DNA from: a virus
Lineage: Duplodnaviria; Caudoviricetes
DNA length: 58,326 bases
Virus record (IMG/VR): IMGVR_UViG_3300031509_000052
Coordinates: 1-58,326 of that record
Reading direction: 5' to 3' (one strand)
The position numbers and the translations under genes were made by a program. Of this stretch, positions 5,897-57,014 are shown in pieces. The number at the start of each line of letters is the position of its first letter. Position 1 is the first letter of the stretch. The notes below the pieces were generated by a model that was not told where the DNA came from, searched no databases, and saw only the letters and a list, made by a program, of their open reading frames with translations.

Positions 5897-6168
5897 CTGA
5901 TGCACTCACCTTCGCCGCATCCGCGCCGTTCGTGGCCCTGATCATCCAGCTCCTGATCAAGCCGCTCTTCCCTGCGGTTCACGGCAGGCTCACGCCCATT
6001 GTGGCGTTCGTCATCGCCTGCGCATGGGGCGGCGTCCTCTCTTATACCGGCGACTTCGACGGCAATGCCGCGGAGTTCATCTTCCTCGCGGTGACCGTGG
6101 CTGCCGCGGCTGCCGGGGTGAAGTCCTGGGTTGATGAAGTAAGAGTGAGGAACGGCAGCGATGGCTGA
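5893..6168 (+). CDS. Putative holin (three TM)
   Basis: 91 aa, three hydrophobic helices, charged C-terminus; ggagg SD. Confidence 0.55.
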   Translation: MTDALTFAASAPFVALIIQLLIKPLFPAVHGRLTPIVAFVIACAWGGVLSYTGDFDGNAAEFIFLAVTVAAAAAGVKSWVDEVRVRNGSDG

Positions 6169-8566
6169 GAACGAAGAGCTGCTCGAACGCGACTACTCCG
6201 CGGACCAGCGGAAAGACATGGCCGCCAAGGGGCTTGCGCTCCCTGACGGCTCTTTCCCGATCGCGGACATCACTGACCTGAAGAACGCGATCAAAGCGTT
6301 CGGGCGGGCCAAGGACAAAGACGCCGCCAAGCGGCACATCATCAAGCGCGCCAGGCAGCTTGGTGCCACGGACCTCCTCCCCGATGGCTGGCTCGACGAG
6401 TCCGCGCCCGAGGATGATTCCCAGTCTGAGTCCGAGTCCCAGCCCGAGCCCGAACCCTCGACCTCCCGGGCCGAAGAGTCCGCCATCACCACCTCTCTCC
6501 CTGTGGAGGCGGTCTCCGAAGAAGCCCCCACTCCCACCACCTACCGCTTCCGGATGCTTGTCATCCGCCCCGGCCTCAGCGAGAACCGCAACCTCTGGAA
6601 GCCTGAGGTCCTCGCTGAAGCCGCTCCGCTCCTTGATGGCCGGCCGATTTACCTCGACCACGGGCTTGAGCGGAGCATGGCGGATAAGGTCGGCTGGTGG
6701 TCCGATGCCTCCTACATCGATCCCGGGGGCATCTACGCCACCGCCAACATCTTCCGGAACTCCGCGCACCCGTGGCTCGGCCCCATGATCTCCGAGGCGA
6801 TCAAAAACGGCCAGCCGGGGCTGATCGGAGTCAGCATCGATGCCTACGTTACAGGCACCATTGAACCAGGCCCTGACGGCTCGCTCCAGCGGGTTGTTCA
6901 CCGGATCGAGCGCTTCAACTCCGCGGACATTGTCGCGGAGCCTGGCGCTGGGGGGAAACCGGTCGCGGTCGTAGCCGAGGGAATCTGCACCGACGAGGAG
7001 TTGGAAATGCTCGAAAAACTCACTCTCGAAGAGCTTCGCAAGGCGCGACCCGATCTTGTGGAAGCGCTCGCGAAGACGGCTGAGGAGTCTTCTGTGAAAG
7101 AGGAGGCCCCGAAGCCGGAAGCCACCCATGCCGCTGAAGATAGCGGCGTCATCAAGGAAGTCTCCTCCAAACTGGAGGAGCTCACCCGCCAGCTCGCTCT
7201 CCGCGAGCAGCAGGCCGCTCTTGAGGCAAAGCTGAACGCCTCCCGCCTCCCGGACACCTTCAAGAAGCTCGTCCGGGAAGAGGTCGGCGACCGGCTCCTC
7301 GAGGACGGCGCAATGGACGTGATCATTGCGAAGTACGTGGACGCCTTCAACGCCGTCACCTCCTCGGCCGCTGCCGCCCCCGCCGGCCGGGTGGTGTTCC
7401 CGCTGGGGCCCTCCGATTCGCAGATCACGCCCATTGAGCAGGTGGTGGCCGCCCTCGAAGACTGGTTCGGCGCGCCGGACCCGGAGATGAAGGGCAAGTA
7501 CCACCCGATCGACTCGATCCGCCAGTTCTACACGGCGCTGACGGGCGACCGGGACGTCAGCGGCTACTACAACCCGAAGGAGTCGATTATCGGCGACTAC
7601 CTCGGGATGCGGCTCGCTGAAGCCCTGCCGAACCAGCCGAACATCATTGGCGGCTCGACGGTCACCCTGCCGAACATCTTCGGCCTTTCGATGAACCGCG
7701 CCCTCCAGCGGATGTACAAGGGACAGACCCGCTGGTGGGAGCCCGTCGTCACCCGCACGCGGCTCTCGAACTTCAAGGAGCAGCAGCGGATCATCATGCA
7801 CCAGTTCGGCTCCCTCACCAACCGCCCTGTCGGTACTGAGGAGTACACCGAACTGACCTACAGCGAAACCCAAGAAGTCTTCACCCCGACCGGGTACGGT
7901 AACGTGGTCTCGGTGAGCCGCCGGGCCATCATCAACGATGACCTCGACACGATCCGCCGGATCCCGCTGCTCCTCGCCCAGTCGGCCACCTACACGATCA
8001 ACGAGCGCGTCGCCAACCTGTTCCTCGCGAACTCCGGCGCTGGCGTCACGCTCTCTGACGGCTTCACGTGGTTCAACGCGGCCAACCACCAGGGCAACGC
8101 CGGCACGGCGGCGCTCTCCAAGGGCTCGCTGACGGACGCGATCAAGACCGTGGCCGCGATGACCAACCAGGCCGGCAAGCGGATCGGCTGGCAGCTCCGC
8201 TACCTGCTGATCCCCGTCGACCTGCTTGACACGGCCTACGAGATCACCGCCTCGGAGAAGGTGCCCGGTTCGAACAACAACGAGCCGAACTTCATCCGCT
8301 CGCGGTGGGGCATCCCGACGGAGAACGTGATCGTCGTCCCGCAGTTCACCGACGCGAACAACTGGTACGCGCTCGCTGACCCGTCGGAGATCGCCATTAT
8401 CGAGGTCGGCTTCGTCCTCGGCCGCGAAGAGCCGGAGATCTTCGTCCAGGACTCGGAGAACACCGGCACGGTCTTCACGCACGACACCATGATGTTCAAG
8501 GTCCGCCACGAATACGGCATGGGCGTGCTGGACTACCGTGGCTCGTACGGGGCGATCGTTCCCTAA
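6161..8566 (+). CDS. Fused prohead protease-scaffold-major capsid protein (Mu gpT-like capsid domain)
   Basis: N-terminal ALPDGSFPI domain, protease-like YLDH..GVSID..SADIVAEPGAGG, coiled coil, then capsid domain (YGNVVSVSRRAIINDDL, YLLIPVDL, FKVRHEYGMGVLDYRG). Confidence 0.8.
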   Translation: MAENEELLERDYSADQRKDMAAKGLALPDGSFPIADITDLKNAIKAFGRAKDKDAAKRHIIKRARQLGATDLLPDGWLDESAPEDDSQSESESQPEPEPSTSRAEESAITTSLPVEAVSEEAPTPTTYRFRMLVIRPGLSENRNLWKPEVLAEAAPLLDGRPIYLDHGLERSMADKVGWWSDASYIDPGGIYATANIFRNSAHPWLGPMISEAIKNGQPGLIGVSIDAYVTGTIEPGPDGSLQRVVHRIERFNSADIVAEPGAGGKPVAVVAEGICTDEELEMLEKLTLEELRKARPDLVEALAKTAEESSVKEEAPKPEATHAAEDSGVIKEVSSKLEELTRQLALREQQAALEAKLNASRLPDTFKKLVREEVGDRLLEDGAMDVIIAKYVDAFNAVTSSAAAAPAGRVVFPLGPSDSQITPIEQVVAALEDWFGAPDPEMKGKYHPIDSIRQFYTALTGDRDVSGYYNPKESIIGDYLGMRLAEALPNQPNIIGGSTVTLPNIFGLSMNRALQRMYKGQTRWWEPVVTRTRLSNFKEQQRIIMHQFGSLTNRPVGTEEYTELTYSETQEVFTPTGYGNVVSVSRRAIINDDLDTIRRIPLLLAQSATYTINERVANLFLANSGAGVTLSDGFTWFNAANHQGNAGTAALSKGSLTDAIKTVAAMTNQAGKRIGWQLRYLLIPVDLLDTAYEITASEKVPGSNNNEPNFIRSRWGIPTENVIVVPQFTDANNWYALADPSEIAIIEVGFVLGREEPEIFVQDSENTGTVFTHDTMMFKVRHEYGMGVLDYRGSYGAIVP

Positions 8567-48235: not shown

Positions 48236-48898
48236 CTATGCGGGAAGGTCGCCGCCGACCTGCCCGCGCACCCCGTAGTACTCGCAGAGCACATCGAGGA
48301 GCGCTTCCGGGTCGATGTGGACCACCTCGCGAATATCGCATGGCAGGTTCATCGAGCGCGCACAGTAGGTCGGCATCGCCGGCAGCGACGTCGACACGTG
48401 AGCGACGCGCGGCGGAACCCAGATGTACTCGAGCCGCGCCGCCGAGGCCCTCCAGCCGTACTCGCCTTCGAGGACGACGCCCCACGCGCGCACGGCAGCG
48501 AGGACCTCGAGGCTGCAGTACATGTACCCGCTGAGGCTCTCTGAGAGGCGGTCGAACGGTGCGGCATCCGCCACCAAGTAGCGGTCTGCCTTGAGCTTGG
48601 CGACCGTCTTGTACCCCCACACACCGCAGGTGTGCTCGCCGTACTTCAAATGGTCGATGCACATCTGCCGCGTGTCGGAGGATTGGTTCTTGCGCTTGAC
48701 GACGTAGCCGTTGCGCAGTGCGGTGAGGGCATCGTCGTAGCGCGCCTTTTCACCGCCGCAGCGGCCGATCAGGTCCCGGCCCTCCCACTCGTTGCCGTAC
48801 GCGCCGGTCAGGACGACCTTATCTGCGTAGACGGTGGGATGAAAGACGCGGTACATGATGATCTGCTCGCTGCTCTGGACAACCGGGAGGAGCGGCAT
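48236..48898 (-). CDS. Conserved hypothetical Cys/His protein (paralog B)
   Basis: HTCGVWGY..AWGVVLEGEYGWRASAARL; ggaggagg SD. Confidence 0.6.
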   Translation of the reverse strand: MPLLPVVQSSEQIIMYRVFHPTVYADKVVLTGAYGNEWEGRDLIGRCGGEKARYDDALTALRNGYVVKRKNQSSDTRQMCIDHLKYGEHTCGVWGYKTVAKLKADRYLVADAAPFDRLSESLSGYMYCSLEVLAAVRAWGVVLEGEYGWRASAARLEYIWVPPRVAHVSTSLPAMPTYCARSMNLPCDIREVVHIDPEALLDVLCEYYGVRGQVGGDLPA

Positions 48899-48918
48899 GG
48901 TACTGATCCTCCTCCTCC

Positions 48919-49077
48919 CTAGTTCCGGCCGCGCCGGACAGGAACGGGAACAAGCTCCCGTTCCTCATCCGGCACAACCGCGGGCTCCGGTGCTGGAGCA
49001 GGCGCGGGAGTGATCACCGGAGCCTCGACGGGCTTCGGGACCACGACGACGCGCAGCGGCCTGCCGATATCGCCCAT
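48919..49077 (-). CDS. 52-aa Pro-rich peptide (not in ORF track)
   Basis: MGDIGRPLRVVVVPKPVEAPVITPAPAPAPEP..; ggaggtg SD; fills the gap exactly. Confidence 0.65.
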   Translation of the reverse strand: MGDIGRPLRVVVVPKPVEAPVITPAPAPAPEPAVVPDEERELVPVPVRRGRN

Positions 49078-49086
49078 GGCTTTTCT

Positions 49087-49506
49087 CTACACCTCCAGTA
49101 TGAACTCGTGTGCGGGTGCGGTACGGACAGTAGCAAACTGTCCGTAGTGGACAAGGTCCAGAGGGGAGCGTTCCGGCACGACGATGTGCCGGATCTCCAC
49201 CTCTGCAGCGCGGAAGCCGCGCTCACTGAGCACGACGTGTGTGCCGGGCACAGCGGCGACCCGCACAAGGGCGAGCCGCCGCTGCACGAATGCCGCGCGG
49301 CGGAATGCGTCCATCTTCGTGAAGTAGACGTAGATCCCGCACGTGCAGGACTCGACCGGCGCATCGTGCGACGGGTTTACGAGGCACCGCGCTTTCTGGC
49401 GCGGTGTGTCCCAGACCTCGTCTGTCGTGAAGGCGCGGAGCCTGCCGTCATCGCCGACAAGCATCCCGCGCCAGCCGAACGTGATGAGCACGTCAGCAGT
49501 AGTCAA
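49087..49506 (-). CDS. Conserved hypothetical Cys/His protein (paralog A)
   Basis: GWR..ARC..HDAP..CTCGIY..VVLSERGFRAAEVEI; TTG start with ggagg SD. Confidence 0.6.
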   Translation of the reverse strand: MTTADVLITFGWRGMLVGDDGRLRAFTTDEVWDTPRQKARCLVNPSHDAPVESCTCGIYVYFTKMDAFRRAAFVQRRLALVRVAAVPGTHVVLSERGFRAAEVEIRHIVVPERSPLDLVHYGQFATVRTAPAHEFILEV

Positions 49507-50704
49507 CCTTGCCCTCCGCAGCGAGGAGCGCGACGTGCATGCCTTTCGGCGTGAGTTCGCGCCCGCGATCCGTGCGAGCAATGAAGCCGAGCCGAACAAG
49601 GTTCGGCTCATAGACGCGCTCGATCGTTTCCACCGACTCACCAAGGCTTGCAGCAATGGCACGGACACCGACCGCCTTCCTGCTTGAGAACATGACGCGC
49701 TTGTAGATCGCAAGGAGGATCTCACGTTCGAACCGCGTGAGCCCGTACTTGTCGATCTGCATGGCGCGCATCGCCATGTCCACGATATCAGGCCGGAGCG
49801 GCGCGCTGGAGACGTCGAACGGCACGGTGTCGTCCTCCGGGTCAGGCATCTCAGCCACCGCGAAGTCGAAGACTCGCTTGAGCAGCTGGTTCGCCTGCCG
49901 CGGAACGCCTTTCGCACGCGCAGCGATCATCTCCAGCGCCTGCTGGGCGGGCGACTTTACCTCGATCGGCTCACCATCCGGGCCGCTGACGATGCCTGGA
50001 GCGAAGAGCCCGTCAACGTAGTTGTCGTACTCTTCCGACTCCAGCTCCCAGAGGATCCGGAAGGATCGCCGCAGCATCTTCGTGATGTCTTCGTCGCTGT
50101 AGTACTCGAGGTGATACTTCAGCGGGAAGCGGTCGAGGAAGGCCCGCGGCAGGATGGCCGGGTCCGTTGTCGCGCCGACAACGGTGAACCGCGGGACGAC
50201 ATGATCGACGAAGCGGAAATCCTCGAGGAGCGGGAGGAGCACCGTGATGGCGTCCTTCGGCAGCCCGTGGATTTCGTCGATCATGATGATCACCTGCGTC
50301 GGCGGGGTTTCAGCGGCTGCGTTGATGACCGCGGCAACGTGTGAGATGACACGTTCCTTGGACATCGACGGGCCGGTGTCGACAATGAGCGCATGGCCCA
50401 TCTCCGCCGCAAGCACCGACGCGATCGTGGTCTTGCCGAGACCGGGAGGCCCGGTCAGGAGGATGTGATCGAGCGGCACGCCGCGGCGCTGGGCCGCGCG
50501 CATGTAGGTGCGGAGCGTGCGCTTGATCTCATCCTGACCGACCACGTCATCGAGACGGCGCGGCCGCAGGGAATCATCGTGGACGTCGTCCAGTTCGCCG
50601 TGGTAGAGCGTCGAGACAGTCAGCAGGGCCCCATCAACAGGGGACCCAATGCTGCTGCTGCTATCAGAGTCGTCGGCCGAAAGCCGGGACAGGATATTCG
50701 TCAT
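49493..50704 (-). CDS. ruvB: RuvB-like Holliday junction branch-migration ATPase
   Basis: LRPRRLDDVVGQ, LDHILLTGPPGLGKTT, IDEIH, FTVVGATT, DRF, GVPR, YEPNL..RTDRGR. Confidence 0.88.
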   Translation of the reverse strand: MTNILSRLSADDSDSSSSIGSPVDGALLTVSTLYHGELDDVHDDSLRPRRLDDVVGQDEIKRTLRTYMRAAQRRGVPLDHILLTGPPGLGKTTIASVLAAEMGHALIVDTGPSMSKERVISHVAAVINAAAETPPTQVIIMIDEIHGLPKDAITVLLPLLEDFRFVDHVVPRFTVVGATTDPAILPRAFLDRFPLKYHLEYYSDEDITKMLRRSFRILWELESEEYDNYVDGLFAPGIVSGPDGEPIEVKSPAQQALEMIAARAKGVPRQANQLLKRVFDFAVAEMPDPEDDTVPFDVSSAPLRPDIVDMAMRAMQIDKYGLTRFEREILLAIYKRVMFSSRKAVGVRAIAASLGESVETIERVYEPNLVRLGFIARTDRGRELTPKGMHVALLAAEGKVDYC

Positions 50705-51507
50705 GCCTCTTCCTCCGTGTAGGTGATGCCGAAGATGCGCTGCGCAACAACAGCGCCGCTCCAGTTCGAACCCGCGAGCCGCCGCCGTTCGAGCACTTCG
50801 AACTCGTCCGGGGCGTTCTCCTGAATCAGCGCGCGCCACGACGGATACGTGGAGCCGTGCCGCACACCGACTGTTGCACCGATGAGGTGCGCGTACTCAG
50901 CGGCGGCGCCGGTGATCACGTAGCGCGTCGGGCGGCGGCCGCGCGTTGCAGACGGGCTGCGGCGCTGCCGCCGCGTGTTGTGCGCGGCTGATGCCTTGAA
51001 GCGGATGCTGGACTCGGACTCGGCCACGACTTCGATCTGCGTCGAATAGCCGAGTGCTGTGATCTCAGCAACACGCTCCGCGGCGAGGTTCTCGATCGCA
51101 TCAGCGATCTGCGACTGGAGGCTGGCGTTCTTGCGCAGCCGCTCGGCATCTGCGCGCAGCCGCTCGACTGTTGCCGCCAGTTCAGGCGGCCGGAAGAGCA
51201 GCAGGCGCTGACCCGGTGAAAGCGGCGGCACGTCGGTCAGCTCGATTGCCTCGCGATCTGCGAGAAGCTGACCAACCAGCGATTCCTGTTCCGCGGCATC
51301 GAGACGATCGCGAAGCCGCTCGAGTTTGAGGATTTTCCCGCTGAGCGCCTTTACATGCTGGCGGAAGATCACCAGCGCTTGGCTTTGCGGGTCCTGTTCT
51401 TCGAGCGACTTCACCGACTCCGTCAACGACGCGAGCGCGGCCTTTGCTTCGGACAGTTGCTTCTCCACTTCTGCCCGGAGCAGGGGGGTCGATTCCCCCG
51501 GTTTCAT
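50701..51507 (-). CDS. Coiled-coil hypothetical protein
   Basis: aaggaggtga SD; heptad-rich N-terminus, basic C-terminal domain. Confidence 0.6.
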   Translation of the reverse strand: MKPGESTPLLRAEVEKQLSEAKAALASLTESVKSLEEQDPQSQALVIFRQHVKALSGKILKLERLRDRLDAAEQESLVGQLLADREAIELTDVPPLSPGQRLLLFRPPELAATVERLRADAERLRKNASLQSQIADAIENLAAERVAEITALGYSTQIEVVAESESSIRFKASAAHNTRRQRRSPSATRGRRPTRYVITGAAAEYAHLIGATVGVRHGSTYPSWRALIQENAPDEFEVLERRRLAGSNWSGAVVAQRIFGITYTEEEA

Positions 51508-51529
51508 GGGTCTCACCTCCTTGCGCCAG

Positions 51530-51603
51530 TTGCGCACACCGTACGAGGAGTAGATTGTACTCCATGTACGGTGTGCGCAAGCATGCCAATGAGGCATGCT
51601 TGC
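51530..51603. repeat. Two overlapping inverted repeats
   Basis: ttgcgcacaccgtac/gtacggtgtgcgcaa (15 bp, inner ggagta/tactcc) and gcaagcatgcc/ggcatgcttgc (11 bp). Confidence 0.8.
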
Positions 51604-51624
51604 AACAACGGAGGGTGGTGTACT

Positions 51625-52578
51625 TTACAGGAAGTGCACGACGAGGTTGCGGATGTTGCTGAGCAGCATAGGGGTTACCTCTGTGCCGCCGATCGAATCC
51701 ACAACCGTGCAGCGGAGCCCCAAGCGGGGCGCGGCGATGATCGTGCCGAGTTTGCGCGGGTCGCCGGTGTACCGCGGCCCCGGCCATCTGCTCGACCATT
51801 GCGAGTAGTACGTGATCCACTCGCCGGGGTGCAGAGGATCGGGAGTGAAGACGCGGATCACCGGGCTGTTGTCGACAGCGTACGCTGCGATCTGTACGAC
51901 GTACTCGAGCGGCGCGCCCACTCCGACGGCATGGTGGATCACGCCGGTCTCCGAATTGCGCACCGTGAGGATGTCGCCAGTGACCAGCGGGTACTCCATG
52001 CCGCCGCGGCGGATGGCGAGGAAGTCTGCGGTTCGTTCCGCTTCGCCGTAGGCGAGACCGCACATGAGCGGCCTATCGCCGTCGAGCACCACGTCGAAGA
52101 TGCGCTTGTAGCGCACATCGTCGAGGATCGACGGCGACTCCGGAAGCGACTCAGCGAACGGGATCGGGAGTTCGAGCCGCACGATTTCCAGCTTGTAGAC
52201 TGGACCATCGTCGGTCTCGAACTCGTCGGCCCACATGATCGCGCGGCCCCCCTTGTACGGCACGATGTGCTCGGTGTCCGCAGCGAGCGGCTCCGTCCGC
52301 CAGTAGGTGCCCGGCCGGGAAAGATCAACCTCTTCAGCAGAGATGACCCACGGCTGCGCCTCTACAACGTGCGGCCTCGGCCCCTGCACGTACAGGTAGG
52401 AGTCTCGGCTAGGGCTGCCGCCATTGTACACGTCGGCATTGCCGAACCACCCCGGCGCCACGTTTGCGGCGTAGTCATCGGCTTCGTCCCATGCGGACTC
52501 GTCGATGTCGACGCCCTGATCCTTCAGCACGACCAATGCGTACCGGCGTGCTGCTTCCCGGTTCTGAAAAACCGGCAT
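51625..52578 (-). CDS. Hypothetical protein
   Basis: aaggaggtga SD directly after hammerhead 1. Confidence 0.65.
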   Translation of the reverse strand: MPVFQNREAARRYALVVLKDQGVDIDESAWDEADDYAANVAPGWFGNADVYNGGSPSRDSYLYVQGPRPHVVEAQPWVISAEEVDLSRPGTYWRTEPLAADTEHIVPYKGGRAIMWADEFETDDGPVYKLEIVRLELPIPFAESLPESPSILDDVRYKRIFDVVLDGDRPLMCGLAYGEAERTADFLAIRRGGMEYPLVTGDILTVRNSETGVIHHAVGVGAPLEYVVQIAAYAVDNSPVIRVFTPDPLHPGEWITYYSQWSSRWPGPRYTGDPRKLGTIIAAPRLGLRCTVVDSIGGTEVTPMLLSNIRNLVVHFL

Positions 52579-52595
52579 CTTGGTACTCACCTCCT

Positions 52596-52664
52596 TGGCC
52601 TGCCATCTTCAGTGCCGGTAGGCCAGCTCCGGCAGACGGGAGCAATCGCTGCTCCCGTTTCGGC
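52596..52664 (-). ncRNA. Hammerhead ribozyme type II (copy 1)
   Basis: GCC GAAA CGGGAGCA-loop-UGCUCCCG UC^ UGCCGG-AGCUGGCCUA-CCGGCA CUGAAGA U GGC AGGCCA; predicted cut after 52635. Confidence 0.9.
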
Positions 52665-52892
52665 TTACTTATCGGCGAGTTTGTTATCGAAGAGTTCGCC
52701 TGCGGCGATCTCACAGGCTGCTTCAAAGAGGAAGTCTTCTTCTTCGCTGAGGTCACACTCAATCAGCTCCCAGAGCTTCTTGAGCAGACGTTCAGCTTCG
52801 GCCTTTTCCTCTTCGGTCAGCGCTTCCCAGGCGGCGTAGGCTTCGGCCCGCGCCGCCTGGTACTCCTGCCACTCGTCTTCGTTCATCATCAC
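52665..52892 (-). CDS. Small acidic protein
   Basis: ~75 aa, 23 D/E vs 7 K/R; aggaggtga SD. Confidence 0.65.
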   Translation of the reverse strand: MMMNEDEWQEYQAARAEAYAAWEALTEEEKAEAERLLKKLWELIECDLSEEEDFLFEAACEIAAGELFDNKLADK

Positions 52893-53287
52893 TACTCTTT
52901 CTCACCTCCTCCTGCGGTTACAGCAGAGAACGCCGGGAGCACCGCGGCTGCGGCTTTTACAAGCTGCGCGTCGCCGAAGAGCACCCACGGTGTGTGTTTG
53001 ACGACGATCAGGCCGCCATAGGCGAAGGCGGGCTCGATCGCGACCGGCGCGAACGGCTCATCGGCGAAGATCGCCGCGAACAGCCGCGTCCAGTCGGGGA
53101 GCGTGTCGGGGCCCTTTACAGTCAGGAACCGCTCGCCGATCGTGATGTGCACAGTGAGGCTGTAGCCAGTCTCATTGACTATCACAGCACCGCGGCGATG
53201 CGCGACTATAACGGGGCTCCCGACCTGCAGCACTTCCGCAGGAGCGGGTGCAGCCGCTTGGGCTGCGGCTGCTACGGGATAAAGCAC
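52892..53287 (-). CDS. Hypothetical protein
   Basis: GTG 53287 after aaggaggtga SD; the longer ORF-track start lies inside the ribozyme. Confidence 0.6.
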   Translation of the reverse strand: MLYPVAAAAQAAAPAPAEVLQVGSPVIVAHRRGAVIVNETGYSLTVHITIGERFLTVKGPDTLPDWTRLFAAIFADEPFAPVAIEPAFAYGGLIVVKHTPWVLFGDAQLVKAAAAVLPAFSAVTAGGGEKE

Positions 53288-53300
53288 GGTGATCACCTCC

Positions 53301-53372
53301 TTGGCCTGCCTATCATCAGTGCATGGCGGCCAACCCATGCAGACAGGGGTTTCCGCCAACCCCTGTTTCGGC
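53301..53372 (-). ncRNA. Hammerhead ribozyme type II (copy 2)
   Basis: GCC GAAA CAGGGGUU-loop-AACCCCUG UC^ UGCAUGG-GUUGGCCG-CCAUGCA CUGAUGA UA GGC AGGCCAA; predicted cut after 53342. Confidence 0.9.
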
Positions 53373-53403
53373 TGTTCGAGGTTTACTTGGGCTCAGCGCC
53401 TGT

Positions 53404-53736
53404 TTACCCGTGGTAGCAGGCGCTGAGCAGCGTCTGCGGCACATACGTGCCGGTGTCTGCGTTCCAGTGAAGGAACGTGACAGGCCGCGGCTCGATAGAA
53501 ACCGCAGCCTCGAGAATCGCGAGTGCGGCCGGCGTAAAGCCGGACACCACTACAGCGAACGGGCCCTCGCGAGGGATGATCCTCCTCGCCATGCGCGTCA
53601 GCTCCGCTGGATTCAGCGGTAGCTCATTCGGGAAAATTGGCGGCCCCACTACAACGGGGCCGATGCCATCGATCGTGATGGTCTGCCCCGGCCGCACGTG
53701 ACGCGCGGTCATCGTGAAAATGGGATGATTTTTCAC
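53404..53736 (-). CDS. Hypothetical protein (possible CARF/SAVED-like fold)
   Basis: VVVSGFTPAALAIL..VTFLHWNADTGTYVPQ; aaggaggtga SD. Confidence 0.55.
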   Translation of the reverse strand: MKNHPIFTMTARHVRPGQTITIDGIGPVVVGPPIFPNELPLNPAELTRMARRIIPREGPFAVVVSGFTPAALAILEAAVSIEPRPVTFLHWNADTGTYVPQTLLSACYHG

Positions 53737-53760
53737 TTCGTCTGTCTCACCTCCTTGTTC

Positions 53761-53830
53761 GGCCTGCCAATCATCAGTGCGCGGAGGCCATCCCGCGCAG
53801 ACAGGGGCTCCGCCCGCCCCTGTTTCGGCA
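53761..53830 (-). ncRNA. Hammerhead ribozyme type II (copy 3)
   Basis: UGCC GAAA CAGGGGC-loop-GCCCCUG UC^ UGCGCGG-GAUGGCCU-CCGCGCA CUGAUGA UU GGCA GGCC; predicted cut after 53800. Confidence 0.9.
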
Positions 53831-53831
53831 G

Positions 53832-54095
53832 TTAGCTTTCGAGAATCGGGAGGAAGAGATCCTCCTTTTCGCCGATGAATACGCGCGCGAGCCGCGCCTC
53901 AGGAGAAAGACCCAGAATGTGCCGAGCAAGCCGTTCGGCCTGCTGGCCCGGGTCTTCCTCGTAACGCCGCCCCTCTACAATGCGCGCGTGGCACACTCCG
54001 ATCGGAGAGTGCGCCGTAACGGCGAGCCGCGGACCTTTGCAGTCCGTGGCTGGAAGATATTTGACCCGTGCGTAGTCGGTATCGTAGTACGGCAC
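53832..54095 (-). CDS. Hypothetical phage protein
   Basis: VKYLPATDCKGPRL; aaaggag SD. Confidence 0.6.
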   Translation of the reverse strand: MPYYDTDYARVKYLPATDCKGPRLAVTAHSPIGVCHARIVEGRRYEEDPGQQAERLARHILGLSPEARLARVFIGEKEDLFLPILES

Positions 54096-54150
54096 CCCTA
54101 AACTCCTTTGATTGTGTGTTGAGCGCTTTACAGTGTCGATCGTAGTTTAT

Positions 54151-54228
54151 GGCGCGGACCCTGCGAGGCGAACCACAGGTTCAGATGTACGGCATGACAC
54201 GCCGCGATGTGCCGCAGGGACCCGCGCC
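54151..54228 (-). ncRNA. Candidate structured RNA (three-way junction)
   Basis: GGCGCGG..CCCUGCG / CGCAGGG..CCGCGCC closing stem enclosing two hairpins. Confidence 0.4.
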
Positions 54229-54235
54229 TTTACAA

Positions 54236-54445
54236 TCACGCGCCGGGTACCTTCCAGTGCCCCGCGCGTCGACCGACAACGCTGGCTTCGACGTACCGCC
54301 GCGCTCCGCAGCGGCACTCTTCGACGTGCACCACGTTGCCGTGGTACATGTCACCGTAGCCCCGTGCGGAGCAATCGATCGCGGCCACGCAGTAGTGCCA
54401 AAGCTGCGTCATCGTCGAAGCGGCACGGTGCCTCTTGTGCAGCAC
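54236..54445 (-). CDS. Small His/Cys-rich protein
   Basis: aaggaggtga SD after hammerhead 4; HxH and CRCG. Confidence 0.55.
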   Translation of the reverse strand: MLHKRHRAASTMTQLWHYCVAAIDCSARGYGDMYHGNVVHVEECRCGARRYVEASVVGRRAGHWKVPGA

Positions 54446-54464
54446 CTTTCACTCACCTCCTTTC

Positions 54465-54538
54465 GGCCTGCCATCATTCAGCACCGGTAGGCCACCTCCG
54501 GTGGACCGCGGGCTGCGTTTACAGCACGCGGTTTCGGC
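54465..54538 (-). ncRNA. Hammerhead ribozyme type II (copy 4, core variant CUGAAUGA)
   Basis: GCC GAAA CCGCG..CGCGG UC^ CACCGG-AGGUGGCCUA-CCGGUG CUGAAUGA U GGC AGGCC; predicted cut after 54504. Confidence 0.8.
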
Positions 54539-55086
54539 TATGCGGGGAGCGTGACGCCGTAGGTTTTCGACACGCTGTTGTAGACGCGAGACTCGAGGAC
54601 TCGCGCCTTTACAACAGTCGCGTAGTCCATGATCGCGTCAAACTGCCGCGGGGAAAGCGGCAGTTTGTACTTGCGATCCTCCTCCGGTGTTTCCATCCAC
54701 TCCACGATCTGATCGCGGAGTGAGCGGCGGAACGGCGAGCGGAACTCCTTTGTCTTCAGGAGATTGACGATCGCCAGCACCGCGGGCATTCCCGCGCGCT
54801 CCTTTACAAGCATGAGCGCGCGCTGCCATGTCTCCGGCCATTCGGCCGGAACAATTGCCCACAGGTAGCGCCAGTCAATCTCGTTACGGCACCACTCTGC
54901 AGGATCCATCCAGTCCGGCAGCACCACGCGCTTTACAAGAAAGCGCGGCGCTTCGTACTGGGTGAAGTCGTCGGGCCCCTGAATGAACGCTTTCTGTTCT
55001 TCGAGGAGCTCAGCATCCTTCGCGGGATCAAACTCCCGCAGAGGCGCCAGCGTGTCGCTCACCTCGCCGTTCCGTTCGAACAGCAC
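54538..55086 (-). CDS. Hypothetical phage protein
   Basis: 182 aa, bounded by hammerheads 5 and 4. Confidence 0.65.
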   Translation of the reverse strand: MLFERNGEVSDTLAPLREFDPAKDAELLEEQKAFIQGPDDFTQYEAPRFLVKRVVLPDWMDPAEWCRNEIDWRYLWAIVPAEWPETWQRALMLVKERAGMPAVLAIVNLLKTKEFRSPFRRSLRDQIVEWMETPEEDRKYKLPLSPRQFDAIMDYATVVKARVLESRVYNSVSKTYGVTLPA

Positions 55087-55125
55087 CTCAACTGTTTTCG
55101 TAGATCACCTCCTGATAGAAATTGC

Positions 55126-55193
55126 GGCTTACCATCATCAGAGCGCATGTTGCCATCATGCGCTGAGCCCGATTCCGTCATCGGGCTTTCGGC
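55126..55193 (-). ncRNA. Hammerhead ribozyme type II (copy 5)
   Basis: GCC GAAA GCCCGAU-loop-AUCGGGC UC^ AGCGCAUG-AUGGCAA-CAUGCGCU CUGAUGA U GGU AAGCC; predicted cut after 55165 (CUC triplet). Confidence 0.85.
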
Positions 55194-55201
55194 TGGTTCC
55201 T

Positions 55202-55858
55202 TTACTTGGAAGCTGCGGCCGCGGCTTCTGCAAGCCGCGCCGCAACTTCACGATCGACACGGAGCGCTGCCGCCCCGTACCGGATGACTGACTCGACGGC
55301 GGCGATCAGTTCGTACCCATAACCGCCGGCGATTTCATTGACGAAATCGCTGAACGGCATGAGCACGTACCGCGCCGTGTCTTCGTCGCTACGCGGGCAC
55401 GCGTACCGCATGGCCGCACTGAGCGCCACACCAACGCCGAGCAGCTGCGGCGACTTCTGCGCCCACGCGACATACACGGGTGTCTGCGGAGCAATCCACC
55501 CGTGGTGTCGCTTGAGCGCGTTTACATGCGGCCTCGCTGCGAAGACCGCGCGCGCGATTGCAACCGCCGGATCTTCCGACGCTACGGTGTGCCGGATTTG
55601 ATACGGTCCCTCCACGTCAGCGACATAGAGGGGACCCTTTTCCGTGCGGACAATGTCGATCCACACCGTCACCTCGCCTTCGTCGTTTTCAACGAAGGCC
55701 CGGTAGCCGGTTGCGACCGGCGCGATGTCGATCAGCGGCCTGTTGTGCTCGCCGTATGCATCGGCGAGCATCTTCATCGCGCTGCGGATGATCTCGTCCA
55801 TGACGAGATCATCACCGCTGCTGATCGTCGTGCTGGGGTTTTCCACCCCCGTGTCCAT
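55202..55858 (-). CDS. Hypothetical protein
   Basis: aaggaggtg SD before ATG 55858. Confidence 0.6.
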   Translation of the reverse strand: MDTGVENPSTTISSGDDLVMDEIIRSAMKMLADAYGEHNRPLIDIAPVATGYRAFVENDEGEVTVWIDIVRTEKGPLYVADVEGPYQIRHTVASEDPAVAIARAVFAARPHVNALKRHHGWIAPQTPVYVAWAQKSPQLLGVGVALSAAMRYACPRSDEDTARYVLMPFSDFVNEIAGGYGYELIAAVESVIRYGAAALRVDREVAARLAEAAAAASK

Positions 55859-55971
55859 TTACTCACACCTCCTTGTGTTTCTTCAGTCAGCGATCGCCGC
55901 GCGTTTACAAACGCGCGCGTCGTGCGATCACTCGTACACACATACGCGGCCGCGTTTACAAACGCGTGGAA

Positions 55972-56062
55972 GCGTATCGCCGCTGATACCCGCACGCATG
56001 CGACAATCGCCGCGTGCGTGCGGGTATCAGCGGCGATACGCGCACCTGGTGCGCGTATCGCC
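55972..56062. repeat. Two overlapping long inverted repeats
   Basis: ~31-bp stem 55972-56041 with one mismatch; 15-bp perfect IR ggcgatacgcgcacc-t-ggtgcgcgtatcgcc at 56032-56062. Confidence 0.85.
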
Positions 56063-56083
56063 TGTTTGTTGTGGGTCTACCTG

Positions 56084-56290
56084 CTAGAGCGCCGTAGTCC
56101 TGAAGCGGCACGTATCCTCTGGTTCGTCGATCCACCAGTAGGTGAGCGTGCCGCTCTCATCATCAACGGCGTCGAAGTAGTAACATACTGCGTCGGTGTA
56201 CGGGATTTCTCCCAAACACCTCTCGATTGTGTGCCGTCCGAGCCACTTGGTGCGAATTTCGTGGACGTGAATCCACTTGTGGTTGTTCAC
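56084..56290 (-). CDS. Hypothetical protein
   Basis: GTG 56290 with ggagg SD. Confidence 0.5.
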   Translation of the reverse strand: MNNHKWIHVHEIRTKWLGRHTIERCLGEIPYTDAVCYYFDAVDDESGTLTYWWIDEPEDTCRFRTTAL

Positions 56291-56457
56291 TTGAACCTCC
56301 ACGAAAAATTTCCGCGCATTTACAAACGCGCGCAGTGCCGCGTTTACAAACGCGCGTATGCGTATGCGAACTTTCGCTCGCACACACATACGCGCGCCGA
56401 TCGCCGATGGCGATCGGACGCGGCCGCGCGCCCAGGGCGCTGAGACCTGGTCTCAGT

Positions 56458-56471
56458 AGAACATTTGTTCT
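56458..56471. promoter_or_regulatory. LexA box of GAAC-N4-GTTC type
   Basis: AGAAC-ATTT-GTTCT palindrome in a non-coding region. Confidence 0.5.
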
Positions 56472-56494
56472 GAATGCGATTCGGTCTCGAATTG

Positions 56495-56537
56495 GACTCA
56501 GTCTAAATCTGGAATGAATCCAGATTTAGACTGAGTC
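56495..56537. repeat. Perfect 19-bp AT-rich inverted repeat
   Basis: gactcagtctaaatctgga-atgaa-tccagatttagactgagtc. Confidence 0.9.
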
Positions 56538-56573
56538 TAGGTCTAGGCTTCGCGTCCTGGTGGCGCGCGGGTG

Positions 56574-57014
<441 letters not shown>

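What the first reader, a model, noticed from the sequence alone, without database searches (positions are those of the whole stretch)
52596..55193. Array of five type II hammerhead ribozymes punctuating the early operon
Seen: five - strand elements share GCC-GAAA-stem III-NUC-stem I-CUGANGA-U(N)-GGY plus a loop I/3' tail pseudoknot (e.g. UGGCCU/AGGCCA). Stems I and III differ between copies but stay paired. Each starts 0-31 nt after a stop codon and ends just before an AGGAGGUGA SD. Known: this is the hammerhead core, and type II pseudoknotted hammerheads occur in bacterial and prophage DNA. Inference: the phage self-processes a polycistronic early RNA into one- or two-gene units without host RNase III. 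The 5'-OH ends and structured leaders could set stability and translation gene by gene.
Basis: partly seen in the sequence, partly recalled or inferred. Interest (0 to 1): 0.95.

Follow-up and report, generated by a model that had tools for sequence, protein, structure and literature searches.

The report
Five hammerhead ribozymes between phage genes
Five self-cutting RNA motifs (type II hammerhead ribozymes) sit between small genes of a hot-spring phage; they are real, but the arrangement was described in 2011 and is thought to cut one long message into gene-sized pieces.

Summary
Five type II, pseudoknotted hammerhead ribozymes lie on the - strand at 55195-55123, 54540-54462, 53831-53758, 53374-53300 and 52666-52594. 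Four pass Rfam's gathering score for Hammerhead_II (41.0-49.4 bits, cut-off 37). The fifth (55195-55123) is missed by Rfam even at E<=10. A covariance model built only from 39 hammerheads of other viral contigs finds it at 46.3 bits, and the next best hit in the window scores 12.5 bits. Stems I and III differ between copies but stay paired (97.2% of 109 cells; 12 of 22 pairs changed on both sides). The stated cleavage sites, stop-codon distances and AGGAGGTGA sites are all correct. One copy (54540-54462) reads CUGAAUGA, an insertion reported to give low activity. The processing idea is not new. Perreault et al. 2011 (PMC3088659) describe several hammerheads flanking single genes or short blocks in prophages and propose the same role. 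Other public viral records carry up to 12 such ribozymes, and the layout stop codon / ribozyme / ribosome-binding site is the rule in this subfamily. Cleavage and transcription could not be tested. Verdict: a genuine new member of a known kind, of modest interest.

The parts
55123..55195 (-). HH1, a variant type II hammerhead. Stem II is GCC(55193-55191)/GGU(55133-55131). GAA is at 55190-55188. Stem III is 55187-55180 with 55173-55166. C17 is 55165, with the cut after it. Stem I is 55164-55157 with 55149-55142. CUGAUGA is 55141-55135, followed by linker U at 55134. Pseudoknot: loop UGGC (55155-55152) with tail GCCG (55128-55125).
   Evidence: R1 scores it 46.3 bits, E 1.8e-9. Rfam gives no hit at E<=10. 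Sequence read. It has G15.2-C16.2 (a CUC triplet), which none of 127 family sequences shows (pair 10-71). A contig of run X2 has GGC and GCCA at the same places (loose end at 55134).
54462..54540 (-). HH2. Its stem II 5' strand overlaps the TAG stop (54540-54538) of the 182-aa ORF. Stem III is enlarged and its loop holds a TGTAAAC motif. C17 is 54504. The core reads CUGAAUGA, a one-base insertion after A6.
   Evidence: Rfam 41.0 bits. R1 61.1 bits, with the insertion shown in the alignment. Perreault 2011 reports low activity for an insertion after A6, 'A6a'.
53758..53831 (-). HH3, with a canonical core, linker UU and C17 at 53800. It starts 2 nt after the TAA at 53834-53832.
   Evidence: Rfam 48.0 bits. 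R1 62.4 bits.
53300..53374 (-). HH4, with a canonical core, linker UA and C17 at 53342. It starts 31 nt after the TAA at 53406-53404.
   Evidence: Rfam 49.4 bits. R1 62.9 bits.
52594..52666 (-). HH5, with core CUGAAGA, linker U and C17 at 52635. It starts directly after the TAA at 52667-52665.
   Evidence: Rfam 42.6 bits. R1 71.6 bits.
55202..55858 (-). 218-aa ORF upstream of HH1. It is the first long gene of the leftward block.
   Evidence: ORF list. No Pfam or PHROG hit.
54538..55086 (-). 182-aa ORF between HH1 and HH2. The predicted unit is 55164-54504, 661 nt. The start codon is uncertain.
   Evidence: Three metagenome homologues besides the window's own protein, at 76-89% identity. Their N-termini differ.
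53832..54445 (-). 69-aa ORF (54445-54236), a structured 140-nt spacer, and an 87-aa ORF (54095-53832), all between HH2 and HH3. The predicted unit is 54503-53800, 704 nt.
   Evidence: The spacer folds at -63.3 kcal/mol, z -3.2.
53404..53736 (-). 110-aa ORF between HH3 and HH4. The predicted unit is 53799-53342, 458 nt.
   Evidence: Three homologues at 67-89% identity.
52665..53287 (-). 131-aa ORF (53287-52892) and 75-aa ORF (52892-52665) between HH4 and HH5. The predicted unit is 53341-52635, 707 nt.
   Evidence: No confident family hit.
51625..52578 (-). 317-aa ORF downstream of HH5. The block continues into a RuvB-like AAA ATPase (50839-49493) and replication genes.

Best explanation
These are five self-cleaving type II hammerhead ribozymes encoded between small genes. 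They lie at the promoter-proximal end of the phage's long leftward gene block, which runs on into replication and recombination genes.

Each folds as stem II (3 bp, open), GAA, a stem III hairpin, the cleavage C, a stem I hairpin, CUGANGA, a 1-2-nt linker and the other strand of stem II. A 4-5-bp pseudoknot between loop I and the 3' tail docks stems I and II.

Inferred mechanism: as the leftward RNA is made, each ribozyme cuts after its C17. This gives pieces of 661, 704, 458 and 707 nt that carry one or two genes.

- Each upstream piece ends in the stem III hairpin with a 2',3'-cyclic phosphate.
- Each downstream piece starts with a 5'-OH, the stem I hairpin and pseudoknot, and then AGGAGGUGA.
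- Only 3 bp of stem II hold the two products together, so they should separate at once.

The likely effect is to uncouple the stability and translation of neighbouring genes and to give each ribosome-binding site a fixed upstream context, much as synthetic ribozyme insulators do.

Shown here: the motifs, their structure, their covariation and their layout. Inferred: transcription as one RNA, cleavage in the cell, and the effect on expression. HH2 (core insertion) and HH1 (CUC triplet, G-U in stem II, 4-bp pseudoknot) are probably slower than the other three.
For: - Rfam Hammerhead_II passes its gathering score for 4 of 5 copies.
- The model built from other contigs finds 5 of 5, with a gap of more than 33 bits to the next hit in the window.
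- On the five copies, 97.2% of cells pair and 12 of 22 pairs change on both sides; 0 of 500 shuffles reach this.
- On 127 distinct family sequences, 96.5% of 2786 cells pair. All 5 pseudoknot pairs change on both sides, and the pseudoknot was not part of the model.
- The core nucleotides C3 U4 G5 A6 N7 G8 A9, G12 A13 A14, A15.1-U16.1 and C17 are intact in 4 of 5 copies.
- All five are on the coding strand, between a stop codon and AGGAGGTGA.
- The same layout holds across the subfamily in other viral contigs. Of 117 ribozymes, 96 have an ORF of at least 40 codons ending within 45 nt upstream (random positions 164 of 585). In 59 it ends within 3 nt (18 of 585). In 106 an SD, a start codon and an ORF follow within 45 nt (89 of 585).
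- Contigs of two other runs (X2, X3) keep the ribozymes while varying N7, the linker length and loop III. X2 has canonical GGC/GCCA where HH1 has GGU/GCCG.
- Published tests on relatives: three tandem arrangements cleaved in vitro, and one also after expression in E. coli (PMC3088659, passages). Three type II hammerheads of D. vulgaris were captured as cleaved RNA in vivo (PMC8782182, passages).
Against: - There is no RNA evidence for this phage.
- No sigma-70-like promoter stands out upstream (1 found against 1.2 expected in shuffles), so the transcript is assumed.
- HH1 fails Rfam's model.
- HH2 carries the A6a-type insertion, for which low activity is reported.
- The AGGAGGTGA after HH1 is badly spaced from any canonical start codon.
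- A homologue of the 110-aa gene (69% identity) sits in another metagenome contig with no hammerhead in 11 kb. The ribozymes are therefore not needed to express that gene.
- A strand-specific motif, TGTAAAS, is frequent in the same region (22 against 2.9 expected). It could mark internal promoters, which would weaken the single-transcript picture.
- A 2019 review calls the biological roles of bacterial self-cleaving ribozymes 'largely elusive' (PMC6765202).
Confidence: 0.75

Rival explanations
1. Portable cassette boundaries. The ribozyme plus AGGAGGUGA is a roughly 85-nt module that travels with accessory genes. Its conserved core (AGCCGAAAC, CUGAUGAUGGCAGGCC) gives phages short homologies at which gene cassettes are swapped. 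Cleavage matters mainly because it lets any newly acquired gene be expressed independently of its neighbours.
For: One contig in each of two other runs joins the HH4 stem III 5' strand, through 22 other letters that complete stem III, to a stem I and tail more like HH2. A different downstream gene start follows (joint 54506/53359, sides of 42 and 45 letters; loose end at 54465). The 9-nt AGGAGGTGA is concentrated here: 7 of the 10 window copies lie on the - strand in 51513-55113, and 5 sit right after the ribozymes. The 110-aa gene occurs elsewhere without ribozymes, and none of the other 12 ORFs tested from this region (48236-56389) matches that contig. Perreault 2011 notes that the identities of the flanked genes are not constant.
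Against: The joint was seen at 80% likeness on repeated sequence, where the tool warns of false joints. Only two contigs show it. Stems I and III differ strongly between the five copies, so the copies offer little homology beyond 9-16 nt. No recombination event was traced.
Confidence: 0.15
2. Leader-trimming insulators on separately started transcripts. Each unit has its own phage-specific promoter, possibly marked by TGTAAAS. The ribozyme only removes a variable 5' leader, so no long polycistronic RNA is processed.
For: TGTAAAS occurs 22 times against 2.9 expected. 21 of the 22 are on the - strand and 14 lie in 51349-56348, including inside genes and in loop III of HH2. Four exact GCGTTTGTAAAYGCG copies lie in the control region upstream.
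Against: Most copies lie inside ORFs, far from the next ribozyme. The genes are tightly packed, with stop codons abutting the ribozymes, and across the family the upstream ORF ends within 3 nt in 59 of 117 cases, which fits read-through transcription. No promoter function has been shown for the motif.
Confidence: 0.07
3. Inactive relics or purely structural spacers. The elements fold but no longer cut, and act only as hairpins that protect RNA ends or pause ribosomes.
For: HH2 has a core insertion and HH1 departs from the family consensus.
Against: The catalytic nucleotides are unchanged in 4 of 5 copies while the stems have diverged with compensating changes. That pattern is expected under selection for the active fold. 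Relatives in X2 and X3 keep the core.
Confidence: 0.03

Closest known systems
Rfam RF02276 Hammerhead_II (type II hammerheads with a loop I/3'-tail pseudoknot; Perreault et al. 2011, PMC3088659)
   Same: Same catalytic core, same open-stem-II topology, same pseudoknot, same association with phage and prophage DNA. Four copies pass the curated score.
   Different: All five have 1-2 extra bases between A9 and stem II relative to the Rfam consensus (alignments). This is usual in the GGCAGGCC subfamily, although my search pattern required it. HH1 falls below Rfam's reach, with a CUC triplet, a G-U in stem II and a 4-bp pseudoknot. HH2 has an inserted base after A6.
Clustered hammerheads flanking genes in prophages (Agrobacterium tumefaciens, with ardA; Clostridium scindens; Azorhizobium caulinodans; Perreault 2011)
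   Same: Several ribozymes on one strand flank single genes or short gene blocks, and the same processing hypothesis is proposed. Those arrays cleaved in vitro, and one also when expressed in E. coli.
   Different: Three ribozymes per tested array there, five here. This is an uncultured hot-spring phage and is untested. I could not see Figure 3 or the supplements of that paper, so larger arrays may already be drawn there.
Larger arrays of the same subfamily in public viral records (handles G001-G005)
   Same: Same model, same strand-coherent intergenic spacing. There are 12, 11, 11, 8 and 6 matches per record at E<=0.001.
   Different: They share no genes with this window as far as tested: no match by the 317-aa protein or by DNA. 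As far as my searches show, no paper describes them.
HHphage of haloviruses HF1/HF2 (Perreault 2011, discussion)
   Same: A hammerhead 13 nt upstream of the start codon of the first gene of an early polycistronic transcript. A mapped 5' end lies within 3 nt of the cleavage site.
   Different: A single ribozyme of a structurally different variant, in an archaeal virus.
Synthetic ribozyme insulators such as RiboJ (recalled; only a search listing was seen)
   Same: They work alike: a hammerhead placed just upstream of the ribosome-binding site cuts off the upstream RNA and leaves a hairpin at the new 5' end.
   Different: Engineered from a plant satellite-RNA hammerhead. This is an analogy of function, not family membership.

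Membership tests
Hammerhead_II (Rfam RF02276) | Score at or above the curated gathering score of 37 bits: HH2, HH3, HH4, HH5 | tested here: met
   41.0, 48.0, 49.4 and 42.6 bits, each matching the full model 1-66.
Hammerhead_II (Rfam RF02276) | Score at or above the curated gathering score: HH1 (55195-55123) | tested here: not met
   No Hammerhead_II match there even at E<=10. My own subfamily model scores it 46.3 bits, E 1.8e-9.
Hammerhead ribozyme (criteria of Perreault 2011, Methods) | Core C3 U4 G5 A6 N7 G8 A9, G12 A13 A14, A15.1-U16.1, H17 with no change: HH1, HH3, HH4, HH5 | tested here: met
   Read from the sequence and the model alignments. All have C17. There are 1-2 extra bases between A9 and G10.1.
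Hammerhead ribozyme (criteria of Perreault 2011, Methods) | The same core with no change: HH2 | tested here: not met
   It reads CUGAAUGA, one base too many after A6. The paper reports low but detectable activity for such an insertion.
Hammerhead ribozyme | Three helices around the core, supported by compensating changes; pairs next to the core intact | tested here: met
   Stems III and I each have 6 of 7 pairs changed on both sides among the five copies, and 94-97% of cells pair. The pairs next to the core (1.1-2.1, 10.1-11.1, 15.1-16.1) are standard pairs in all five.
Type II pseudoknotted subclass | Open stem II, and at least 4 bp between loop I and the bases just 3' of stem II | tested here: met
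   5 bp in four copies and 4 bp in HH1, all paired. In the wider family all 5 pseudoknot pairs covary and 97.0% of cells pair.
Hammerhead ribozyme | Site-specific self-cleavage giving 2',3'-cyclic phosphate and 5'-OH ends | not testable with these tools
   No run on record as RNA was listed. This needs in vitro transcription or end-specific RNA sequencing.
Clustered prophage hammerhead arrangement (Perreault 2011) | Several hammerheads on one strand flanking single genes or short blocks in phage DNA | tested here: met
   Five in 2.6 kb, all on the - strand, bounding units of 1, 2, 1 and 2 ORFs. The record is a virus contig with terminase, capsid/protease, tape measure and DNA polymerase genes.

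The most novel reading that the evidence does not exclude
The ribozyme plus ribosome-binding site is a portable 'expression socket'. Hot-spring phages swap accessory (possibly host-takeover or anti-defence) genes at these ribozymes. Because the stop codon of the upstream gene abuts or overlaps stem II, a ribosome finishing the upstream gene would hold the ribozyme unfolded. Cleavage, and so the release and stability of the downstream message, would then be gated by upstream translation. This would make the array both a recombination scaffold and a translation-sensing processing device, not just a passive cutter.
Probability: 0.12. Interest if true: 0.6.

Novelty: new member of a known kind. 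Interest (0 to 1): 0.3.

Why it matters
The biological role of bacterial and phage self-cleaving ribozymes is still described as 'largely elusive' (PMC6765202). A clean five-ribozyme array with predictable fragment sizes is a convenient test case for the mRNA-processing idea. It includes two natural core or periphery variants and comes from a hot-spring phage, so it is also a possible source of heat-tolerant ribozyme parts. I measured one regularity across the subfamily and found it in none of the four literature searches aimed at it: the upstream ORF ends within 3 nt of the ribozyme in 59 of 117 cases, and an SD, a start codon and an ORF follow in 106 of 117. This sharpens the hypothesis but does not change the kind of system.

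Tried and rejected
Relatives of the window
- The 317-aa protein found no relative in viral contigs or metagenome contigs. Blastn of 51600-55900 against cultured phages gave no match.
- The capsid/protease protein's best phage match is 26.9% identity over 70% of the query. No tRNA genes were found. The host therefore stays unknown.

RNA evidence
- No RNA holder was listed. The three runs listed are on record as DNA and kept as contigs, so laying them could show neither RNA ends nor the RNA strand.

Other ribozyme classes
- Nothing in the window other than the four hammerheads reaches a gathering score.
- The microRNA-family matches at 55971-56042 are long palindromes, far below their cut-offs.

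A sixth ribozyme in the 140-nt spacer 54236-54095
- Neither Rfam nor R1 matches there. It folds well, but I cannot name it.

Heat adaptation
- Stem III hairpins are more stable than the family median (9th-24th percentile at 37 C), but stem I is average. This is inconclusive.

Comparative test of array conservation
- The only relative fetched (L122) shares just the 110-aa gene and has no hammerhead.

RNA circles by religation
- I considered this and rate it unlikely. Only 3 bp of stem II would hold the two halves together. Perreault 2011 looked for circular or spliced products and found none. No RtcB-like ligase turned up among the 40 ORFs I scanned, but I did not search for that family directly.

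Closed or unseen sources
- Supplements and figures of the papers were not seen. Figure 3 and Dataset S1 of PMC3088659 may show arrays of five or more.


Full report
What the window is. The window is a complete IMG/VR virus record of 58,326 b, linear and estimated 71% complete. Its + strand from about 1 to 22.6 kb carries terminase, a capsid/protease fusion and a tape-measure protein. A long - strand block runs from 55858 down to about 22.7 kb. It carries a RuvB-like AAA ATPase, an exonuclease, a DNA methyltransferase, a helicase, an ERCC4/HhH nuclease and a DNA polymerase. The runs that hold the sequence are labelled hot-springs metagenomes. No cultured phage is close: the best capsid match is 26.9% identity and there is no DNA match. 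The finding lies in the first 3.3 kb of the leftward block, just downstream of an intergenic control region (55860-56790) that is full of inverted repeats.

Checking the observation. Rfam's Hammerhead_II model (RF02276, gathering score 37 bits) matches four - strand elements over its full length: 53373-53300 (49.4 bits), 53830-53758 (48.0), 52665-52594 (42.6) and 54539-54462 (41.0). The fifth claimed element, at 55193, gave no Hammerhead_II match even at E<=10.

To test the fifth element without circularity I built my own model.
- I scanned viral contigs for a pattern taken from the four validated copies.
- From 141 matches (114 unique) I picked 39 sequences less than 85% alike and at most 72 nt long.
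- I aligned them, checked the hand-drawn structure (87.0% of cells paired against 64.7% in shuffles, 0 of 500 reaching it) and built model R1.
- The fifth element does not fit the search pattern, so its score is a fair test.

Run over the whole window with filters off, R1 gives five hits at 71.6, 62.9, 62.4, 61.1 and 46.3 bits. The last is 55195-55123, E 1.8e-9. The sixth best of 54 matches at E<=10 is 12.5 bits. There are therefore exactly five, all in 52594-55195 and all on the - strand.

Anatomy. Each copy reads GCC, GAA, stem III (closed by A15.1-U16.1), C17, stem I, CUGANGA, one or two linker bases, GGC (GGU in HH1), A, and a tail that pairs with loop I.
- On the five-copy alignment, 97.2% of 109 cells form standard pairs and 12 of 22 pairs change on both sides. 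In stems III and I this is 6 of 7 pairs each. No shuffle out of 500 reaches this, and sliding the partners drops pairing to 27-37%.
- The pseudoknot is UGGCC/GGCCR in four copies and UGGC/GCCG in HH1.
- In 127 distinct family sequences from other contigs, all five pseudoknot pairs show changes on both sides and 97.0% of cells pair. The pseudoknot was not part of the model that made that alignment. The nested helices of that alignment are fitted to the model, so their counts lean towards it.

Two copies depart from the canon.
- HH2 reads CUGAAUGA, one base too many after A6. Perreault et al. 2011 tested such an 'A6a' insertion and report low activity. Its stem III is also enlarged.
- HH1 has G15.2-C16.2, so its triplet is CUC rather than GUC, which none of the 127 family sequences shows. 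It also has a G-U in stem II and a 4-bp pseudoknot with a U-G pair.
- A contig of run X2 has GGC and GCCA at the corresponding places of HH1 (loose end at 55134). This argues that the element is maintained as a ribozyme in relatives.
- That CUC is cleavable follows the NUH rule, which I recall rather than tested.

Layout. The upstream stop codon lies 8, -1 (TAG overlapping stem II), 2, 31 and 0 nt before the G of GCC. AGGAGGTGA follows each copy. The 9-mer occurs 10 times in the window against 0.46 expected, and five of these are the sites after the ribozymes. Start codons follow the GGAGG core of that site (its bases 2-6) after 8-13 nt for HH2 to HH5. After HH1 the first canonical start (GTG at 55086) lies 18 nt past the end of the motif, and homologues do not conserve the N-terminus, so that start is uncertain. 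The ribozymes bound units of one, two, one and two ORFs, with predicted pieces of 661, 704, 458 and 707 nt. The flanked ORFs have no confident Pfam or PHROG family. Two of them have only three homologues each, all from metagenomes.

How it compares with what is known. Perreault et al. 2011 (PMC3088659; passages and section 8 read) described type II hammerheads and their loop I/3'-tail pseudoknots. [quoted passage not shown] They showed cleavage in vitro for three tandem arrangements, and in E. coli for one. A 2021 study captured the cleaved ends of three type II hammerheads near phage-like genes in D. vulgaris (PMC8782182). A 2019 review repeats the processing idea and says the roles remain largely elusive (PMC6765202).

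The array is not exceptional in size either. R1 found 190 matches at E<=0.001 in 100 of the 117 fetched loci. In five whole viral records chosen for their many hits it found 12, 11, 11, 8 and 6 matches, strand-coherent within about 8 kb.

A family-wide regularity. I examined 117 hammerheads of this subfamily in other viral contigs. Duplicates with identical context over 60 nt on each side, and sites within 200 nt of a locus end, were dropped.
- 96 have an ORF of at least 40 codons ending within 45 nt upstream (random positions in the same loci: 164 of 585).
- 59 have it ending within 3 nt (18 of 585).
- 106 are followed within 45 nt by an SD-like site, a start codon and an ORF of at least 40 codons (89 of 585).
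- 88 have both.

The window's layout is thus the norm. My literature searches turned up no paper giving such counts. I did not see the supplements of the 2011 paper.

Mechanism. The fold and its conservation are shown. The rest is inference. In the type II topology, stems I and III are closed hairpins, and only the 3-bp stem II links the two halves.
- After the cut, the upstream RNA ends with the stem III hairpin and a cyclic phosphate.
- The downstream RNA begins with 5'-OH, stem I and the intramolecular pseudoknot, then the ribosome-binding site.
- The products should part quickly.

From general knowledge of bacterial RNA decay, such ends would resist end-dependent nucleases. Each ribosome-binding site would also sit in the same local context whatever lies upstream. 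Because the stop codon abuts stem II, a terminating ribosome would cover the 5' part of the ribozyme, so upstream translation could delay cleavage. This is a testable idea, not a result.

Evidence that tempers the reading.
- No RNA data exist for this phage and no promoter was identified.
- A homologue of the 110-aa gene sits in another contig with no hammerhead within 11 kb and no other shared gene, so the ribozymes are add-ons rather than requirements.
- Contigs from two other runs suggest a mosaic. One contig in each joins the HH4 stem III to a different stem I and a different downstream gene. This fits cassette exchange at the ribozymes, but it was seen at 80% likeness on repeated sequence.
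- The strand-specific motif TGTAAAS occurs 22 times against 2.9 expected. 21 are on the - strand and 14 lie in 51349-56348, one of them in loop III of HH2. It is unexplained and might mark internal promoters or operators.

Verdict. The functional inference is reasonable but already published and untested here. This is a new member of a known kind. Its value is as a tidy, thermophile-derived test case with two natural variants. Interest is about 0.3.

Noticed in passing
window, - strand, mainly 51349-56348: Motif TGTAAAS occurs 22 times against 2.86 expected (0 of 100 shuffles reach 22). 21 of the 22 are on the - strand and 14 lie in the ribozyme region and its control region. Several are in frame as Val-Lys inside ORFs, and one lies in loop III of HH2 (54517-54523). 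It could be a promoter or operator half-site, or a Chi-like site. Unresolved.
   Followed up: partly
window 55900-55914, 55951-55965, 56315-56329, 56339-56353 (- strand): Four exact copies of the near-palindrome GCGTTTGTAAAYGCG lie in the intergenic region upstream of the leftward block (9 matches at up to 2 mismatches against 0.18 expected). The pair at 56356-56313 forms a terminator-like hairpin followed by a T run. They look like operator sites.
   Followed up: partly
window 55973-56040 and 56032-56062: There is a 68-nt near-perfect palindrome, which matches microRNA hairpin models far below their cut-offs. A 31-nt hairpin overlaps its end. Both lie in the same control region.
   Followed up: no
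window 54236-54095 (- strand): A 140-nt spacer lies between the 69-aa and 87-aa ORFs, which have no ribozyme between them. It folds into a long helix closing two hairpins (-63.3 kcal/mol, z -3.2). Neither Rfam nor R1 matches it. It holds two TGTAAAG copies and the only sigma-70-like site of the region (54139-54111). It could be a protein-nuclease site, a terminator plus promoter, or an unknown RNA.
   Followed up: partly
window 51513-55113 (- strand): The 9-mer AGGAGGTGA occurs 10 times in the window against 0.46 expected. 7 of the 10 lie in this 3.6-kb stretch and 5 sit directly after ribozymes, so this extended ribosome-binding site is not general to the phage's genes and seems to travel with the ribozyme.
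   Followed up: partly
window 55113-55062 (- strand): The start of the 182-aa ORF is unclear. The first canonical start (GTG at 55086) lies 18 nt past AGGAGGTGA. An in-frame ACG sits at ideal spacing, but homologues do not cover that N-terminus.
   Followed up: partly
G001-G005 (whole viral records behind L102, L070, L100, L024, L019): Other public viral records carry 12, 11, 11, 8 and 6 hammerheads of this subfamily. Those of G001 all lie on one strand within about 8 kb. Such very large arrays do not appear in the papers I could search.
   Followed up: partly
L122 10001-10321: A 69%-identical homologue of the 110-aa flanked gene lies in a 29-kb metagenome contig. It has no hammerhead within 11 kb, and none of the other 12 window ORFs tested matches that contig. 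The gene moves independently of the ribozymes.
   Followed up: yes
window 52400-55400, runs X2 and X3: Two other hot-spring runs hold mosaic relatives. They vary at N7, in linker length (U to UU or UUU) and in loop III of the ribozymes. A contig in each joins the HH4 stem III to a different stem I and a different downstream gene.
   Followed up: partly
window 6161-8566 (+): An 801-aa protein matches both head-maturation protease and major head protein families (PHROGs), so it looks like a protease-capsid fusion. The best cultured-phage match is 26.9% identity, and the window has no tRNA genes.
   Followed up: no
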